Source of the DNA: Tolypothrix carrinoi HA7290-LM1
GTDB taxonomy: Bacteria; Cyanobacteriota; Cyanobacteriia; Cyanobacteriales; Nostocaceae
Reading direction: 5' to 3'
Length of the DNA stretch: 64,000 nt
Assembly: GCA_019358935.1 (NCBI GenBank)
Contig: JAHHIK010000026.1
Location: 14,559-78,558, forward strand
In this document: positions 30,279-35,036 of the stretch, piece after piece
Position numbering within the stretch: the first letter of the stretch is position 1
How the letters are laid out: every line of letters starts with the position of its first letter
Notes under the pieces: generated by a model
What the model saw: only the letters and a program-made list of their open reading frames with translations
Told to the model about the DNA's origin: nothing
The model's database searches: none
Program-made: the position numbers and the translations under genes

Positions 30279-30530
30279 AGGACTTACGCAAAAATTCTCT
30301 CTTTTCCTCATTCCTCTGTGAACTCTGCGTCGCGCCAGTCGCTACAACGGGGGGAACCCCCGCAACGCGCTGGCTTCTCTGCGGTTCGTTTTTTCACTCG
30401 TAAATTGGCTGTGCCTTGTTACGCAATTCTTGTGGGCTGCTGCCTCATCCGATCTGACCGGAGGCAACCTCTTTCCTTCGTGTTCTTCGTGTCTTTGCGG
30501 TTCGTTTTTTCATGACTTTGCGTAAGTCAT
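30279..30530. mobile_element. MITE-like element with GGACTTACGCA terminal inverted repeats
   Basis: AGGACTTACGCA...TGCGTAAGTCAT, containing a nested dispersed repeat at 30332-30374. Confidence 0.7.
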
Positions 30531-30613
30531 ATTTTTGTGAAAAACACTGTAATTCCGTAATTCGGAAAACAAGCTTGTATAAATTTAAAGGTAGAACATA
30601 TGAGAAAGCAAAT

Positions 30614-32692
30614 ATGACCGAACAAACAACTCAAATACCCAACTTATACGCTTTATTGATTGGTATTGACTACTATCTACCAGGTCAATTACCGGATGGA
30701 GGTTATTATGCGAGCCTTGGAGGATGTGTACGCGATATTAAACGGGTAGAGGATTACCTCAAAAAGACGCAGAAGCCGAAGCAAATCTTTAAGCTGACAT
30801 CTTCTAATACCGGTGCTACGGAACCACCCGAACCTAAAGAGCAATTGCCTACTTACGAAAATATCGTTGCGAAGTTTCACGCAATTACTGAGATAGCCCA
30901 AAAAGACGACCAAGTTTATATTCATTATTCTGGTCATGGGGGGCGTGCAAAGACAATCTATCCAGAATTGAAGGGTGCGGGACAACCTGATGAAGCGCTT
31001 GTACCGATGGATATTGTCAAAACAAATGAACGCTATCTCCGAGACGTTGAAATTGCAACACTCCTGAAAAAGATGGTGAATAAGGGGTTAGTTGTCACAG
31101 TGGTGTTTGATAGCTGTCACTCTGGAGGTACTACACGAGGGGATACGGCAATTCGAGGACTGGAAGGAGAACCGGACACGACATCACGACCTACAGACAG
31201 CTTAGTGGCATCGCGTGAGGAATTAATTAATAACTGGCTTGAGATTACAGGGGGAACAGCTCGCAAAGCTAATGCAGGTGATTGGCTTCCGGAATCGCGA
31301 GATTATGTTTTGTTAGCAGCTTGTCGCCCTTCGGAGTATGCTTTTGAGTCTGTATTCAATGGTAAGGAGAGTAATGGAGCGCTTACTTACTGGATGCTAG
31401 ATACTTTAGCTAACCCAAGTCCAGACTTGACATATAAGTCACTTTACGATCGCGTTTACGCCAAAGTCCAAAGTCAATTTCAAACCCAAACACCGATGCT
31501 ATTTGGCGAGGGTGAACGTCAAGTTTTTGGCAGAAGTTACACAAATGTACATTATACAGTAAATGTTCTCAAAGTAGATACTGCTAGAAATCGGGTGCTA
31601 TTAGATGCAGGTATAGCACAGGGACTGGGTGAAGGGGCAAGATTTGCTATTTATGCACCAGGTACAACAGATTTTAGCGAGAAAAACAAGCCGTTAGCGA
31701 TCGCCCAAGTTTCAGCAGATATTACTCCCGGTGACGCTTGGGCTGTGATTGACCCAAATTCGCTGCGTGGAAATATTCAGCAAGCATCTCCGGCAATTAT
31801 GTTATCAGCTGCGATCGCACTTGTGCGGCGAGTTCGTCTGTTTGAGAAACAAGACGATAGCACGAAATTGATGAAAAGTCAAACGGATGCACTCACAGCA
31901 GTCAAAGCTGCAATTCCGAGAACTGGCAAAGGTTGGGTAGAGTTAGCAAATGAAGGTGAACACTATCAAGTTGCGATTAATACTTCGGGCGAGTATGAAA
32001 TATGCGATCGCAACGGTACGCCATTTCCCAATTTACGACCAGCGTTGTTAGTAGGCGATCGTGATGCTGCGGAAAACGTAGTTAAGCGCTTAGTTCATCT
32101 TACTAAATACCAGGCTGCCCAAGAACTGGAAAATCTTTCAGTTTTAACCAACAAGTTGGTAGTTCAGTTAACTGACAAAAACAAAAAGCCATTAGCTGAG
32201 CCTACTAAACAAACATTGCAAACTGAAGAAAATACATTTTTATATATCAAGAATGAGTCTAACCAAGACTTGAATGTTGTCGTCATGGATCTTCAGTCAG
32301 ATTGGGCTATTTCTCAACTTGACATATTAGAAGATGGGGCACCTTTTGTCACTTTTAACCCGAAGCAAGAAGAATTGATTCGCTTAAGTTTCAAACTGCC
32401 AGAGGGGTATAAAGAAGGTAAAGACATCTTAAAGGTATTTGCGACAGTTGGACCTGCTAAGTTTCGCTGGCTAGAATTACCGTCCTTGGACAAACCGATT
32501 AAAGCAAGAAAAGCAGCATTCGATGAATATGACGAGAATACACCCAGAGGTGGTGGCGATCCACTTGACAAACTTTTGTCAGCTATTAGTGCCGATCCTG
32601 ATGAGATACCTCCTACCCGTGAAGCACAATTTATGAGTTCAAATCGCGGCTGGACGACAAAAACTGTGACAATCACTGTGAAAGCGGTTTAA
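30614..32692 (+). CDS. Caspase-like (peptidase C14) protein with long C-terminal extension
   Basis: YALLIGIDYY, LGGCVRD, catalytic HYSGHG and DSCHSG. The ORF-track start at 30512 lies inside the MITE, so ATG 30614 is preferred. Confidence 0.9.
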   Translation: MTEQTTQIPNLYALLIGIDYYLPGQLPDGGYYASLGGCVRDIKRVEDYLKKTQKPKQIFKLTSSNTGATEPPEPKEQLPTYENIVAKFHAITEIAQKDDQVYIHYSGHGGRAKTIYPELKGAGQPDEALVPMDIVKTNERYLRDVEIATLLKKMVNKGLVVTVVFDSCHSGGTTRGDTAIRGLEGEPDTTSRPTDSLVASREELINNWLEITGGTARKANAGDWLPESRDYVLLAACRPSEYAFESVFNGKESNGALTYWMLDTLANPSPDLTYKSLYDRVYAKVQSQFQTQTPMLFGEGERQVFGRSYTNVHYTVNVLKVDTARNRVLLDAGIAQGLGEGARFAIYAPGTTDFSEKNKPLAIAQVSADITPGDAWAVIDPNSLRGNIQQASPAIMLSAAIALVRRVRLFEKQDDSTKLMKSQTDALTAVKAAIPRTGKGWVELANEGEHYQVAINTSGEYEICDRNGTPFPNLRPALLVGDRDAAENVVKRLVHLTKYQAAQELENLSVLTNKLVVQLTDKNKKPLAEPTKQTLQTEENTFLYIKNESNQDLNVVVMDLQSDWAISQLDILEDGAPFVTFNPKQEELIRLSFKLPEGYKEGKDILKVFATVGPAKFRWLELPSLDKPIKARKAAFDEYDENTPRGGGDPLDKLLSAISADPDEIPPTREAQFMSSNRGWTTKTVTITVKAV

Positions 32693-32717: not shown

Positions 32718-32774
32718 AGAAACCCGGTTTCTTGAAGAAACCGGGTTTCTGAAGTTTGAAGAAACCCGGTTTCT
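32718..32774. repeat. Palindromic AGAAACC(C/G)GGTTTCT repeat, 3 copies
   Basis: The same unit occurs twice at 48477-48509. Confidence 0.8.
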
Positions 32775-32780
32775 GAAGAT

Positions 32781-33650
32781 TCAAGCCGCACAAAAAATAG
32801 GGGCAGGCTTGAAACCTACCCCTACTTGTGGTATAATCCGCCCAACTGCGGCGGCTACGAGTCTTAAGCTATCAACTAAATCCACCATGTCTTCTAAAGA
32901 CAGCGCTTGACGGGCATCAGAAACGGATTTTTCCGGTTCTGGGTGACACTCGATAATTAACCCATCTGCGCCACAAGCTACCGCAGCTTTCGCCATAGCT
33001 GCTACCAATTCGCGTTTGCCTACGGCGTGGGATGGATCTACAATTACAGGTAAGTGAGTAATTTGCTTGAGAGCCGCTACAGCCGCTAAATCCAAGACGT
33101 TGCGGGTGTAATCATCAAAGCTGCGAATACCTCTTTCGCACAGTACCACATTTGGGTTGCCGTGACTTAAAATATATTCGGCTGCCATAACGAATTCTTC
33201 AATTGTCGCGGCTAAACCACGCTTGAGGAGTATCGGCTTACCGGCTTGTCCTAAAGCTTTGAGCAAGTCGAAGTTTTGCATGTTGCGGCTACCAACTTGC
33301 AGCATATCAGCATGGGTGGCGATCGCTTCAATTTGCGAGATTGACATAACTTCGGTGACAACTGGGATATTGTAACGCGATCGCACTCTTGCCAAAATTT
33401 CCAGTCCTTCTTCTCCCATTCCCTGAAAGGCGTAGGGTGACGTTCGCGGCTTGTAAACACCGCCACGCAAAGCTTGTACGGGCGCAGCAGATAGCTTTTG
33501 GGCGACTGTTTCCATTTGCTCTAAGCTTTCCACCGTGCAAGGTCCACCGATAATCACCAGTTCTTTACCGCCAAAAGCGACTTTTTCAGAGACATTGACG
33601 ATTGTTTGGTGGTGAAGATGAGATTGTGAAGCAAGTTTGGCATTAATCAT
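32781..33650 (-). CDS. aroF: 3-deoxy-7-phosphoheptulonate (DAHP) synthase, type I-beta
   Basis: GGPCTVES, RGGVYKPRTSPYAFQG, QVGSRNMQNF, LCERGIRSF, VDPSH, IECHPEPEKSVSD. RBS is AAGGAG. Confidence 0.96.
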   Translation of the reverse strand: MINAKLASQSHLHHQTIVNVSEKVAFGGKELVIIGGPCTVESLEQMETVAQKLSAAPVQALRGGVYKPRTSPYAFQGMGEEGLEILARVRSRYNIPVVTEVMSISQIEAIATHADMLQVGSRNMQNFDLLKALGQAGKPILLKRGLAATIEEFVMAAEYILSHGNPNVVLCERGIRSFDDYTRNVLDLAAVAALKQITHLPVIVDPSHAVGKRELVAAMAKAAVACGADGLIIECHPEPEKSVSDARQALSLEDMVDLVDSLRLVAAAVGRIIPQVGVGFKPAPIFCAA

Positions 33651-33671
33651 CGGTTCGATTCTCCTTACAAT

Positions 33672-33701
33672 AAAAAAGCCCAGAACTTTTAAGTTCCGGG
33701 C
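33672..33701 (-). terminator. Attenuator terminator 2 (proximal to aroF)
   Basis: mRNA GCCCGGAAC-uuaaaa-GUUCUGGGC-UUUUUU, ending about 21 nt before the aroF start. Confidence 0.9.
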
Positions 33702-33728
33702 GCGTTCGATACATCAGCATGACGCTAT

Positions 33729-33791
33729 TCACCCGGAGCTTGCCCCGCGCCAAAAGTAAAAACCATAAAACCAGCTACCGAAATGAGTCAT
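33729..33791 (-). CDS. Aromatic amino acid leader peptide 2 (MTHFGSWFYGFYFWRGASSG)
   Basis: 20 codons with 4 Phe, 2 Tyr and 2 Trp. AGGAG RBS at 33804-33808. The 3' end is complementary to the 5' arm of terminator 2. Confidence 0.87.
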   Translation of the reverse strand: MTHFGSWFYGFYFWRGASSG

Positions 33792-33808
33792 CACGCTGAA
33801 AATCTCCT

Positions 33809-33843
33809 AAAAAAACAAAAACCGCAGAGTTCGCTCTGCGGTT
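33809..33843 (-). terminator. Attenuator terminator 1 (distal)
   Basis: mRNA AACCGCAGAG-cgaa-CUCUGCGGUU followed by a U-rich tract. Confidence 0.9.
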
Positions 33844-33873
33844 CACCGGGCTGTTTCCACTGGGAAACTTGAC

Positions 33874-33930
33874 TCACCCCCGGTGAACCACCCTAAACCA
33901 AAAATAAAAGTAGGAATTACTGCTTAACAT
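33874..33930 (-). CDS. Aromatic amino acid leader peptide 1 (MLSSNSYFYFWFRVVHRG)
   Basis: 18 codons with six consecutive aromatic codons YFYFWF. The 3' part forms an 11-bp helix overlapping terminator 1. Confidence 0.85.
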   Translation of the reverse strand: MLSSNSYFYFWFRVVHRG

Positions 33931-33979
33931 TTGCGCGGTGCTTTGTTGTGAAATTTCATGTAAAACTACATTAACAAAG

Positions 33980-34009
33980 AACTTATCACAGCACTTCTAA
34001 CCTTGTCAA
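33980..34009 (-). promoter_or_regulatory. Probable sigma70-type promoter for the aroF leader
   Basis: TTGACA (34009-34004), 18 nt spacer, TAAGTT (33985-33980). Confidence 0.6.
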
Positions 34010-34044
34010 GGCTCCCACCAGACCAAAAAAGAGTTAGAAGTTAG

Positions 34045-34142
34045 GTAGAGACGTTCCACACCGAACGTCTGTACAAAAGGCGCGGAGTTAGGAGTTGTAG
34101 AGACGTTCCACACCGAACGTCTCTACAAAAGGCGCGGAGTTA
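34045..34142. repeat. Tandem duplicate of the palindromic GTAGAGACGTTC...GAACGTCTCTAC repeat
   Basis: Two ~52-nt copies here, with related single copies at about 29413-29441 and 43327-43356. Confidence 0.8.
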
Positions 34143-34263
34143 TAAGTTATAAGTTGTAAATTATAAATTATGATTGCGACTCCCCACTCCTCCACTCCCC
34201 CACTAAGAGCACTCCTCCACTCCCCCACTCCCCACTAAGAGCACTCCCACCTTAAGTTTGATT

Positions 34264-34806
34264 ATGCCTAGTTCCAAAATATTAGCCGTGCCTTTAAATT
34301 ATCAAGGAGTTTACCCTTGCCCAGTCTGTCGTGTTGGTAAAATTCGCGACATGCATTTAATGGAGGCTATGTCTTGTGACTTCTGTCATGAGATTTTTAC
34401 CGTCAATCTAGAACAACAGCAACTGAAGATGCCTTCTCGTCAACCACCGCTGACTTGGCGTTGGAATGGCTTTAATTGGACAGAAACTCAGTTGGAAGGT
34501 GTGGAATTGGGTTGGGGTTATGCCCTAGGTGCCGTTGCTTTTGTGCTTTTTCCGACTATTATCATCGGCATAGTCGCTTACAATTTTCCTTTAGATCCAC
34601 ATGCTCCGATTACTTGGTTGCCTTCTATCTGGACTTGCTTAACCTTTTTGCTGCATTTCTCAATTATTGTTTGGCTGTTGATTGAGATTTATCAGGTTCC
34701 TCTTGGTGCGTATTGGAGAGGTATCGTCCGATGGAGAGAAGTCCGAGCGACGGTTACGAGCGCTCGGAACTTCCAAAGAAATAGCGTTATCAGAAACGGG
34801 GAATAG
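34264..34806 (+). CDS. Hypothetical membrane protein with N-terminal Cys4 zinc ribbon
   Basis: CPVC...CDFC followed by two hydrophobic helices. Confidence 0.8.
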   Translation: MPSSKILAVPLNYQGVYPCPVCRVGKIRDMHLMEAMSCDFCHEIFTVNLEQQQLKMPSRQPPLTWRWNGFNWTETQLEGVELGWGYALGAVAFVLFPTIIIGIVAYNFPLDPHAPITWLPSIWTCLTFLLHFSIIVWLLIEIYQVPLGAYWRGIVRWREVRATVTSARNFQRNSVIRNGE

Positions 34807-34916
34807 GAAATAAGGAATAGAAAATGGGAAATAACCCTCTGTTTGTACCAGTCGCTAGTATTATTTCTTATGCATTAAAGAAAATTATGTCACTGCGTCA
34901 GGTAGCATACAAGTAT

Positions 34917-35036
34917 GTTTTGTTGGGCAGAAAACTACTGCCGCTTGCGTGAGATATCAAGAAGCGTCAAGTTGCTAAAAATCTCACGGATGGCGGTAAA
35001 AAATGGCGGAATATACCGTTATCTACCCAACAAAAC
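34917..35036 (+). ncRNA. Candidate structured RNA or 5' leader (three-way junction)
   Basis: Four nested or branched helices, starting 8 nt after a TAGCAT -10-like box. See findings. Confidence 0.5.

What the first reader, a model, noticed from the sequence alone, without database searches (positions are those of the whole stretch)
33672..34009. Tandem Phe/Tyr/Trp-sensing leader-peptide attenuators upstream of DAHP synthase in a cyanobacterium
Seen on the minus strand, in order: (1) a promoter-like TTGACA-18-TAAGTT; (2) leader 1 (33930-33874), MLSSNS-YFYFWF-RVVHRG*, whose 3' segment GGUUCACCGGG (33889-33879) pairs perfectly over 11 bp with CCCGGUGAACC (33850-33840), overlapping the base of terminator 1 (AACCGCAGAG/CUCUGCGGUU plus U tract) by 4 nt; (3) an AGGAG RBS and leader 2 (33791-33729), MTH-FGSWFYGFYFW-RGASSG*, whose 3' end AAGCUCCGGG (33741-33732) pairs with one mismatch to CCCGGAACUU (33700-33691), the 5' arm of terminator 2; (4) the aroF RBS. 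Established: this is the geometry of trp/phe/his-type ribosome-mediated attenuation, where a ribosome stalled on control codons frees the antiterminator and one reaching the stop masks it. Inference: two attenuators in series, each reading all three aromatic aminoacyl-tRNAs, gate the first step of the shikimate pathway with a multiplied dynamic range. I am not aware of classical attenuation, or a tandem three-amino-acid version, being described for cyanobacteria. Both ORFs are below annotation cutoffs.
Basis: partly seen in the sequence, partly recalled or inferred. Interest (0 to 1): 0.95.

Follow-up and report, generated by a model that had tools for sequence, protein, structure and literature searches.

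The report
Tandem aromatic attenuators before DAHP synthase
Two tiny reading frames packed with Phe, Tyr and Trp codons, each wired to a switchable transcription stop signal, sit in series before a regulator-less copy of the first enzyme of aromatic amino-acid synthesis in many cyanobacteria, which looks like the textbook ribosome-sensing switch, doubled, in a group where I found no report of it.

Summary
Both mini-ORFs, antiterminators and terminators are at the stated places. Both leaders recur in 133 of 145 related loci. Starts are in frame, the Trp-to-stop distance is fixed, and changes are synonymous or Phe/Tyr swaps. All four switch helices show compensatory changes.

The regulated gene is one of three DAHP synthases in the genome and the only one lacking the feedback domain. 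Under one rule, 186 of 193 loci of this short clade carry a unit, against 0 of 74 long forms. The rule finds only these two leaders among 11,678 mini-ORF/gene pairings in the genome.

Best reading: ribosome-mediated transcription attenuation standing in for allosteric feedback (0.82). Termination, translation, three-amino-acid sensing and multiplication are inferred, not measured.

Precedents exist for aroF attenuators (Corynebacterium, Acholeplasma) and tandem attenuators (Salmonella mgtCBR). I found no cyanobacterial report, and a 2016 paper says reliable data are lacking. This scan already noted the same element in other genomes.

The parts
33980..34009 (-). sigma70-type promoter candidate: -35 TTGACA (34009-34004), extended -10 TG (33988-33987), -10 TAAGTT (33985-33980)
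   Evidence: same arrangement in 135 of 140 homologous loci vs 53 of 2800 shuffles; start site not mapped
33874..33930 (-). leader ORF 1, 18 codons; control codons Y-F-Y-F-W-F at 33912-33895
   Evidence: in-frame ATG in 139 of 140 loci vs 3 and 1 in the other frames, Trp-to-stop 8 codons in 134 of 140
33838..33891 (-). antiterminator 1: 33891-33879 paired with 33850-33838 (13 bp), enclosing a small inner hairpin
   Evidence: 6 of 13 pairs with changes on both sides, 0/500 shuffles reach the covariation score
33809..33844 (-). intrinsic terminator 1: 11-bp hairpin 33844-33819 plus U tract
   Evidence: 97% of cells paired, 4 of 9 pairs compensatory
33804..33808 (-). AGGAG, possible ribosome-binding site of leader 2
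   Evidence: only 78 of 137 homologues have an SD-like word there
33729..33791 (-). leader ORF 2, 20 codons (alternative GTG start at 33794); control codons W-F-Y-G-F-Y-F-W at 33773-33750
   Evidence: last Trp-to-stop 7 codons in 122 of 132 loci, all three stop codons used, length changes in whole codons
33691..33741 (-). antiterminator 2: 33741-33731 paired with 33701-33691 (10 bp, one mismatch)
   Evidence: 4 of 10 pairs with changes on both sides, 16 such cells vs 4.4 shuffled
33672..33701 (-). intrinsic terminator 2: 10-bp hairpin 33701-33678 plus U6
   Evidence: 4 of 9 pairs compensatory
33661..33666 (-). AAGGAG ribosome-binding site of the DAHP synthase gene
32781..33650 (-). type I-beta DAHP synthase, 289 aa, lacking the N-terminal ferredoxin-like regulatory domain PF18152
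   Evidence: TIGR01361 370 bits vs cut-off 268; PF00793 without PF18152, whereas both other copies in the genome have PF18152; best PDB sequence matches 1vs1 and 1zco

Best explanation
This is a pair of ribosome-mediated transcription attenuators in series. They control an accessory DAHP synthase that has no allosteric feedback domain. When Phe-, Tyr- and Trp-tRNAs are charged, a ribosome following RNA polymerase reaches each leader's stop codon and covers the 5' strand of the antiterminator. The terminator then forms and transcription stops near 33812, or for escaping polymerases near 33672. When the ribosome stalls on the aromatic codons, that strand stays free, pairs with the terminator's 5' arm before the 3' arm is made, and polymerase reads on. 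Two read-throughs are needed, so the extra enzyme is made only under marked shortage. Shown: sequence anatomy, conservation, covariation, association with the regulator-less clade. Inferred: translation of the leaders, termination in vivo, which amino acids count, and how the two units combine.
For: Both leaders in 133 of 145 unique loci; substitutions at control positions are synonymous or Phe/Tyr swaps; Trp-to-stop distance fixed. Compensatory changes in both mutually exclusive helices of each unit. Footprint-masked folding, unit 1: antiterminator probability 0.89 and terminator 0.24 with the ribosome at Trp, against 0.00 and 0.91 at the stop (medians of 138 loci). Unit 2: antiterminator formed before the terminator's 3' arm is made in 126 of 127 loci when stalled at Trp and 0 of 127 at the stop. 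One rule finds a unit in 186 of 193 short-clade loci and 0 of 74 long forms, and only these two leaders in the genome. The product of the regulated gene makes the precursor of exactly the amino acids encoded (established pathway knowledge).
Against: No transcript end, start site or ribosome footprint was observed (one search gave contigs only). At equilibrium terminator 2 beats antiterminator 2 even with a stalled ribosome (median 0.90; window 0.99), so unit 2 needs kinetic trapping. With a +16 footprint edge at Trp, unit 1 is ambiguous (terminator 0.73, antiterminator 0.66). No conserved pause signal or protector hairpin rose above shuffles. Leader 1 has no SD. Some relatives have a premature stop, lost stop, lost start or insertion in one leader, or only one unit. 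In Synechococcus only 22% of transcription units end at canonical intrinsic terminators (PMC12642595). The loci are dominated by Nostoc and Microcoleus and are not independent.
Confidence: 0.82

Rival explanations
1. Arrest-peptide variant: the nascent FYFW-type peptide binds a free aromatic amino acid in the ribosome tunnel (TnaC-like, recalled) and holds the ribosome at or near the stop codon, where it masks the antiterminator. The output has the same sign, but the signal is free amino acid, not uncharged tRNA.
For: Trp is the anchor residue at a fixed distance from the stop (the Trp was used to anchor that count). Without a protector hairpin, termination depends on the ribosome dwelling at the stop.
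Against: Control positions swap freely between Phe and Tyr, and the residues after Trp vary widely or are fixed by RNA pairing. The two leaders have different C-termini. The fixed spacing is also what footprint geometry requires.
Confidence: 0.07
2. The hairpins act after transcription: as processing or stability ends, or as a general translation-speed sensor, not as amino-acid-specific terminators.
For: Intrinsic termination explains a minority of cyanobacterial transcript ends. Phe codons in leader 1 are 345 of 352 UUU against 75% genome-wide, so the U-rich sequence itself may matter.
Against: Both hairpins have canonical U tracts and neither structure covers the aroF SD. The aromatic identity is kept across Tyr/Phe/Trp codons, and the target is the aromatic pathway entry enzyme.
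Confidence: 0.07
3. The peptides or the released leader RNAs act in trans, and the arrangement is not a cis switch.
For: The peptides are well conserved.
Against: Strong model matches lie only at this gene, one per genome. The covarying antiterminators overlap the terminators. A leader 1 remains in front of a decayed gene in G034.
Confidence: 0.03
4. Chance arrangement of U-rich sequence read as Phe/Tyr codons beside ordinary terminators.
For: U-rich DNA gives aromatic clusters easily: 166 of 11,678 mini-ORFs.
Against: Only 2 pass the full rule; in-frame ATG in 139 of 140 loci; covariation in four helices.
Confidence: 0.01

Closest known systems
Corynebacterium glutamicum aroR-aroF attenuator (Neshat et al. 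2014, as summarised in PMC11802643; passages read)
   Same: Leader peptide with Phe/Tyr codons ahead of a DAHP synthase gene; ribosome stalling raises transcription.
   Different: Single leader with Phe-Tyr-Phe and no Trp; responds to Phe but not Tyr; its AroF is also feedback-inhibited; Actinobacteria. No sequence comparison was made.
uORFC-13-1 motif of Acholeplasma (Brewer et al. 2021, PMC8632094; passages read)
   Same: Predicted uORF with Phe codon(s) and an intrinsic terminator, found only upstream of aroF.
   Different: Single unit, 24 representatives, Acholeplasma and environmental sequences, Phe only as described; a prediction.
E. coli trpL, pheL and pheST leader attenuators (passages of PMC11802643; PMC3641672 section 11)
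   Same: Control codons, then an antiterminator strand at the end of the ORF, then a terminator sharing a strand with it.
   Different: One unit and one amino acid each; they have a 1:2 pause/protector hairpin (recalled), not supported here. No Rfam match to Trp, His, Leu or Thr leaders or any other family.
Salmonella mgtCBR mgtM/mgtP tandem attenuators (PMC3641672; abstract and section 11 read)
   Same: Two short ORFs in one leader, each controlling transcription into the coding region.
   Different: Two different signals (ATP, proline), no intrinsic terminators, additive effect. Here both units read the same three amino acids and each has its own intrinsic terminator.
Type I-beta DAHP synthases without a regulatory domain (PDB 1vs1, 1zco)
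   Same: Catalytic barrel only, 262-276 aa, best sequence matches.
   Different: Their organisms (Aeropyrum, Pyrococcus) and lack of feedback inhibition are recalled, not checked; no leader control known to me.

Membership tests
Classical ribosome-mediated transcription attenuator (trp/phe/his type) | Short leader ORF enriched in codons for the pathway's end products | tested here: met
   YFYFWF and WFYGFYFW clusters conserved; frame and stop conserved
Classical ribosome-mediated transcription attenuator (trp/phe/his type) | Intrinsic terminator between leader and structural gene | tested here: met
   (by sequence and covariation; termination itself not observed)
Classical ribosome-mediated transcription attenuator (trp/phe/his type) | Antiterminator mutually exclusive with the terminator, free when the ribosome is on control codons and masked at the stop | tested here: met
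   (computational; unit 2 only in the co-transcriptional model)
Classical ribosome-mediated transcription attenuator (trp/phe/his type) | 1:2 pause/protector hairpin synchronising polymerase and ribosome (present in trpL; not required of every attenuator) | tested here: inconclusive
   candidate local hairpins exist (95% and 72% of cells paired) but show no covariation beyond shuffles for unit 1 and weak for unit 2; stability and pause motif not above shuffles
Classical ribosome-mediated transcription attenuator (trp/phe/his type) | Leader is translated and termination responds to charged-tRNA level | not testable with these tools
   only assembled contigs of RNA runs were available
Rfam leader families (Trp, His, Leu, Thr leaders) or any Rfam family | Match to the family covariance model | tested here: not met
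   0 matches at E<=1 in window 33000-35000; 0 at gathering score in 5 related loci
Type I-beta DAHP synthase (TIGR01361) | Score above the curated cut-off; KPRT substrate motif (motif recalled) | tested here: met
   370 vs 267.75 bits; KPRT in the sequence
Feedback-regulated type I-beta DAHP synthase | N-terminal ferredoxin-like domain PF18152 | tested here: not met
   absent here, present in both other copies in the genome

The most novel reading that the evidence does not exclude
An old lineage of DAHP synthase in the phylum Cyanobacteriota lost its allosteric domain and is governed instead by a doubled leader-peptide attenuator. The two units may descend from one duplication, both read Phe-, Tyr- and Trp-tRNA charging, and they multiply into a steep response. 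Because the untranslated state is predicted to read through, the switch can only work if ribosome and polymerase are tightly coupled or a non-canonical pause holds polymerase. It would therefore be direct evidence, and a ready reporter, for functional transcription-translation coupling in Rho-less cyanobacteria.
Probability: 0.5. Interest if true: 0.85.

Novelty: new variant of a known kind. Interest (0 to 1): 0.7.

Why it matters
A 2016 paper from a group that surveyed attenuation states there are no reliable data on it in cyanobacteria (PMC4833913). A 2025 preprint finds canonical termination explains a minority of cyanobacterial operons (PMC12642595). A conserved, covarying attenuator in this phylum would fill that gap. 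It gives a 340-nt element with which to test whether transcription and translation are coupled in these Rho-less bacteria. It shows a swap of regulatory level within one enzyme family: paralogs with the feedback domain have no leader, and the one without it has two. It also offers a native aromatic-amino-acid sensor, and a natively domain-less DAHP synthase, for cyanobacterial metabolic engineering. The basic mechanism is textbook, which caps the score.

Tried and rejected
1. A short Trp-rich ORF further upstream in 12 loci looked like a third leader. It is the antisense reading of the start of the divergent neighbouring gene and is not found by a six-frame pattern search of this genome. Rejected.

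2. A local hairpin over the leader 1 stop: 95% of cells paired but no change on both sides, 240 of 500 shuffles reach its score. A 1:2 protector for leader 2: 72% paired, covariation score reached by 8 of 500 shuffles, the other four measures unremarkable. Neither is more stable than shuffles. Not supported.

3. Elemental pause motif after the stops: 19 of 43 and 31 of 46 diverse loci against 51% and 44% in shuffles. Not supported for unit 1, inconclusive for unit 2.

4. RNA data. The one run search (on L092) returned assembled contigs only. In the 4 runs laid, contigs cover the leader. Leader contigs were deeper than those crossing terminator 2 in three runs (1373 vs 105, 300 vs 32, 19.5 vs 3.7 for the contig just beyond), while one run had a single contig of depth 8.2 across the region. 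The deepest contig also spans terminator 1. Contig depth cannot show ends or rank parts of a gene, so I do not count this as evidence.

5. Script errors. The masking measures were unspecific and the unit-2 rows had an off-by-one anchor. They were replaced (unit 1; unit 2; 10 loci skipped by the pattern).

6. Other attenuators in this genome (His, Leu, Thr/Ile, Ile/Leu/Val, tandem Trp): none passed the rule. The models found no second strong site. Of 12 weak model-1 hits in the phylum sample, the 8 inspected showed no aromatic leader unit; several are plain terminator hairpins.

7. No leader unit before the DAHP synthases of the G084 class (30 loci scanned). No match in plasmids. None of 5 leader-2 peptides is in the protein collection. 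No conserved downstream operon partner.

8. The Genome Biology 2003 paper on redundant trp/aro genes in heterocystous cyanobacteria is not held. Neshat 2014 and Lopatovskaya 2010 were not read; they are cited only through other papers. No supplements were opened, so tables of predicted attenuators or small ORFs there could hold this element.

Full report
Observation. Antiterminator 1 is longer than stated, 13 bp, and takes 7 nt of terminator 1. Antiterminator 2 takes the whole 5' arm of terminator 2. Rfam has no match. In the whole genome, 11,678 mini-ORF/gene pairings gave 166 with an aromatic cluster, 5 with a terminator as well, and 2 with an antiterminator as well; those 2 are these leaders.

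The gene. The downstream ORF (33650-32781, 289 aa) is a type I-beta DAHP synthase. It lacks the N-terminal ferredoxin-like domain PF18152, which both other copies in this genome carry; one of those follows a trpD-like gene. That this domain mediates feedback inhibition is recalled knowledge. The short form is a separate clade (99/97 support), found in 45 of 61 genomes of the family sample and 50 of 301 of the phylum sample. All 45 have at least one further match. It has no conserved downstream partner.

Conservation of the leaders. Of 164 short-form loci, 148 were unique and 145 had at least 600 nt upstream. Of these 133 had both leaders, 7 only the first, 4 only the second and 1 neither. Inspection of 11 of the 12 exceptions showed four true single-unit loci (L148, L152 unit 1; L146, L151 unit 2). 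The rest had a lost stop, lost start, premature stop, insertion or broken gene. For leader 1 an ATG lies in frame in 139 of 140 loci against 3 and 1 in the other frames; this is partly by construction, since leaders were called from ORFs. The Trp-to-stop distance is 8 codons in 134 of 140 and, for leader 2, 7 codons in 122 of 132. Control positions change synonymously or between Phe and Tyr, and lengths change by whole codons. The promoter is conserved in 135 of 140 against 53 of 2800 shuffles. These loci are rich in Nostoc and Microcoleus and are not independent. One uniform rule (aromatic mini-ORF, terminator, antiterminator) found at least one unit in 186 of 193 short-clade loci, two in 158 (L264 counted twice through two frames), and none in 74 long forms; 17 short and 4 long loci were dropped for too little upstream DNA.

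Structure. On 43 and 46 diverse sequences, all four helices show changes on both sides: antiterminator 1, 27 cells against 6.7 shuffled; terminator 1, 12 against 2.2; antiterminator 2, 16 against 4.4; terminator 2, 25 against 7.2. No shuffle of 500 reached the covariation score for any of them. The tool warns that relatedness alone can beat shuffles, but slid registers fall to 10-60% paired. In six sequences one A-to-G change in the shared strand of unit 1 is kept as a wobble in the antiterminator and compensated in the terminator. Folding with a ribosome footprint masked gives the expected switch. Unit 1: antiterminator 0.89 at Trp, 0.00 at the stop; terminator 0.24 and 0.91 (138 loci, +13 edge; ambiguous at +16). 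Unit 2: the antiterminator forms before the terminator's 3' arm exists in 126 of 127 loci at Trp and 0 of 127 at the stop, but at equilibrium the terminator wins, so unit 2 needs kinetic trapping. Without a ribosome the antiterminator is predicted to form in both units. Candidate protector hairpins and pause motifs did not rise clearly above controls.

Range. Covariance models of the two units gave 21 and 20 strong hits in 151 genomes, all at this gene, apart from one leader in front of a decayed copy. In another class of the phylum (class of G072; from recalled GTDB structure probably the non-photosynthetic Vampirovibrionia), 7 of 30 loci examined are short-form and all 7 have an aromatic leader ORF. 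Five match model 1 at E 3e-11 or better and three look tandem by eye. They group with the photosynthetic short clade (98 SH-aLRT in a quick tree); descent versus transfer was not tested. Model 2 also matches unit 1 in two of them (E 2e-7, 4e-6) and one peptide mixes features of both, which hints, weakly, that the two units arose by duplication. None was found in 30 loci of the G084 class.

Mechanism. The best reading is two ribosome-mediated transcription attenuators in series. Fast translation masks the antiterminator strand and lets the terminator form; stalling on aromatic codons frees it. Two read-throughs are needed to make an enzyme that has no feedback domain, so transcriptional control plausibly replaces allostery. 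Not shown: translation, termination, which amino acids count, and whether the units multiply. RNA runs offered contigs only and are not evidence either way.

Comparison with what is known. The mechanism is classical. Attenuators before DAHP synthase are described for C. glutamicum (PMC11802643, passages) and predicted for Acholeplasma (PMC8632094, passages) and Shewanella (PMC2659441, passages). Putative attenuators before aro-tyrA operons of other phyla are tabulated in PMC1173090 (passages). Tandem attenuators are known from Salmonella mgtCBR, for two different signals (PMC3641672, abstract and section 11). For cyanobacteria, PMC4833913 states that reliable data on attenuation are lacking (passages). 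PMC3766115 places amino-acid attenuator motifs mainly in gamma-proteobacteria (passages). PMC12642595, PMC11848123, PMC7693272 and PMC12525003 had no hit for 'attenuat'; PMC7858274 (passages) covers coupling and runaway transcription. Ten searches showed no description of this element. The library lacks most subscription journals and I opened no supplements. Earlier notes of this scan describe the same element in other genomes; they are not independent support, but they supplied the C. glutamicum lead and the pointer to non-photosynthetic relatives, both checked here.

Verdict. A real, conserved element; a new variant of a known kind. Confidence in tandem ribosome-mediated attenuation 0.82; interest 0.7.

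Noticed in passing
window 34031-34248: Tandem repeats between the promoter and the divergent gene: a 52-nt unit with an internal palindrome (2.2 copies), a 7-nt AGTTATA array and ACTCCCC arrays. Similar short repeats expand between terminator 2 and the gene in many relatives.
   Followed up: partly
window 32718-32785: Repeated palindromic unit AGAAACCCGGTTTCT right after the DAHP synthase stop, between convergent genes; possible bidirectional terminator or repeat element.
   Followed up: no
window 34258-34806 (+): Divergent 182-aa gene with two CxxC motifs and hydrophobic stretches, no Pfam or NCBIfam match; lies next to the leader in several Nostocales relatives.
   Followed up: partly
window 30512-32692 (+): 726-aa convergent protein with a caspase-like SGHG/DSCHSG motif pair (family recalled); no NCBIfam match, Pfam not run.
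   Followed up: no
L122 and L140, leader 1: Natural premature stops 3 codons after the Trp, with all helices intact; the ribosome would no longer mask the antiterminator, predicting a constitutive unit 1.
   Followed up: partly
L012 and L158, leader 2: Leader 2 is interrupted by an insertion: a transposase-like ORF end in L012 (inferred), a tandem repeat in L158.
   Followed up: partly
L201 (G034:C49:74007-74140): Promoter and leader 1 survive in front of a deleted, decayed DAHP synthase fragment.
   Followed up: partly
L268 and L269: More distant short DAHP synthases with different aromatic leaders and a CCGCA-type terminator that the models and the rule miss; possibly a third, divergent unit type.
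   Followed up: partly
L167:101-1408: trpD-like gene with a long Gly-Gln-Gly and Ser-Pro repeat insertion in frame, directly upstream of a long-form DAHP synthase.
   Followed up: no
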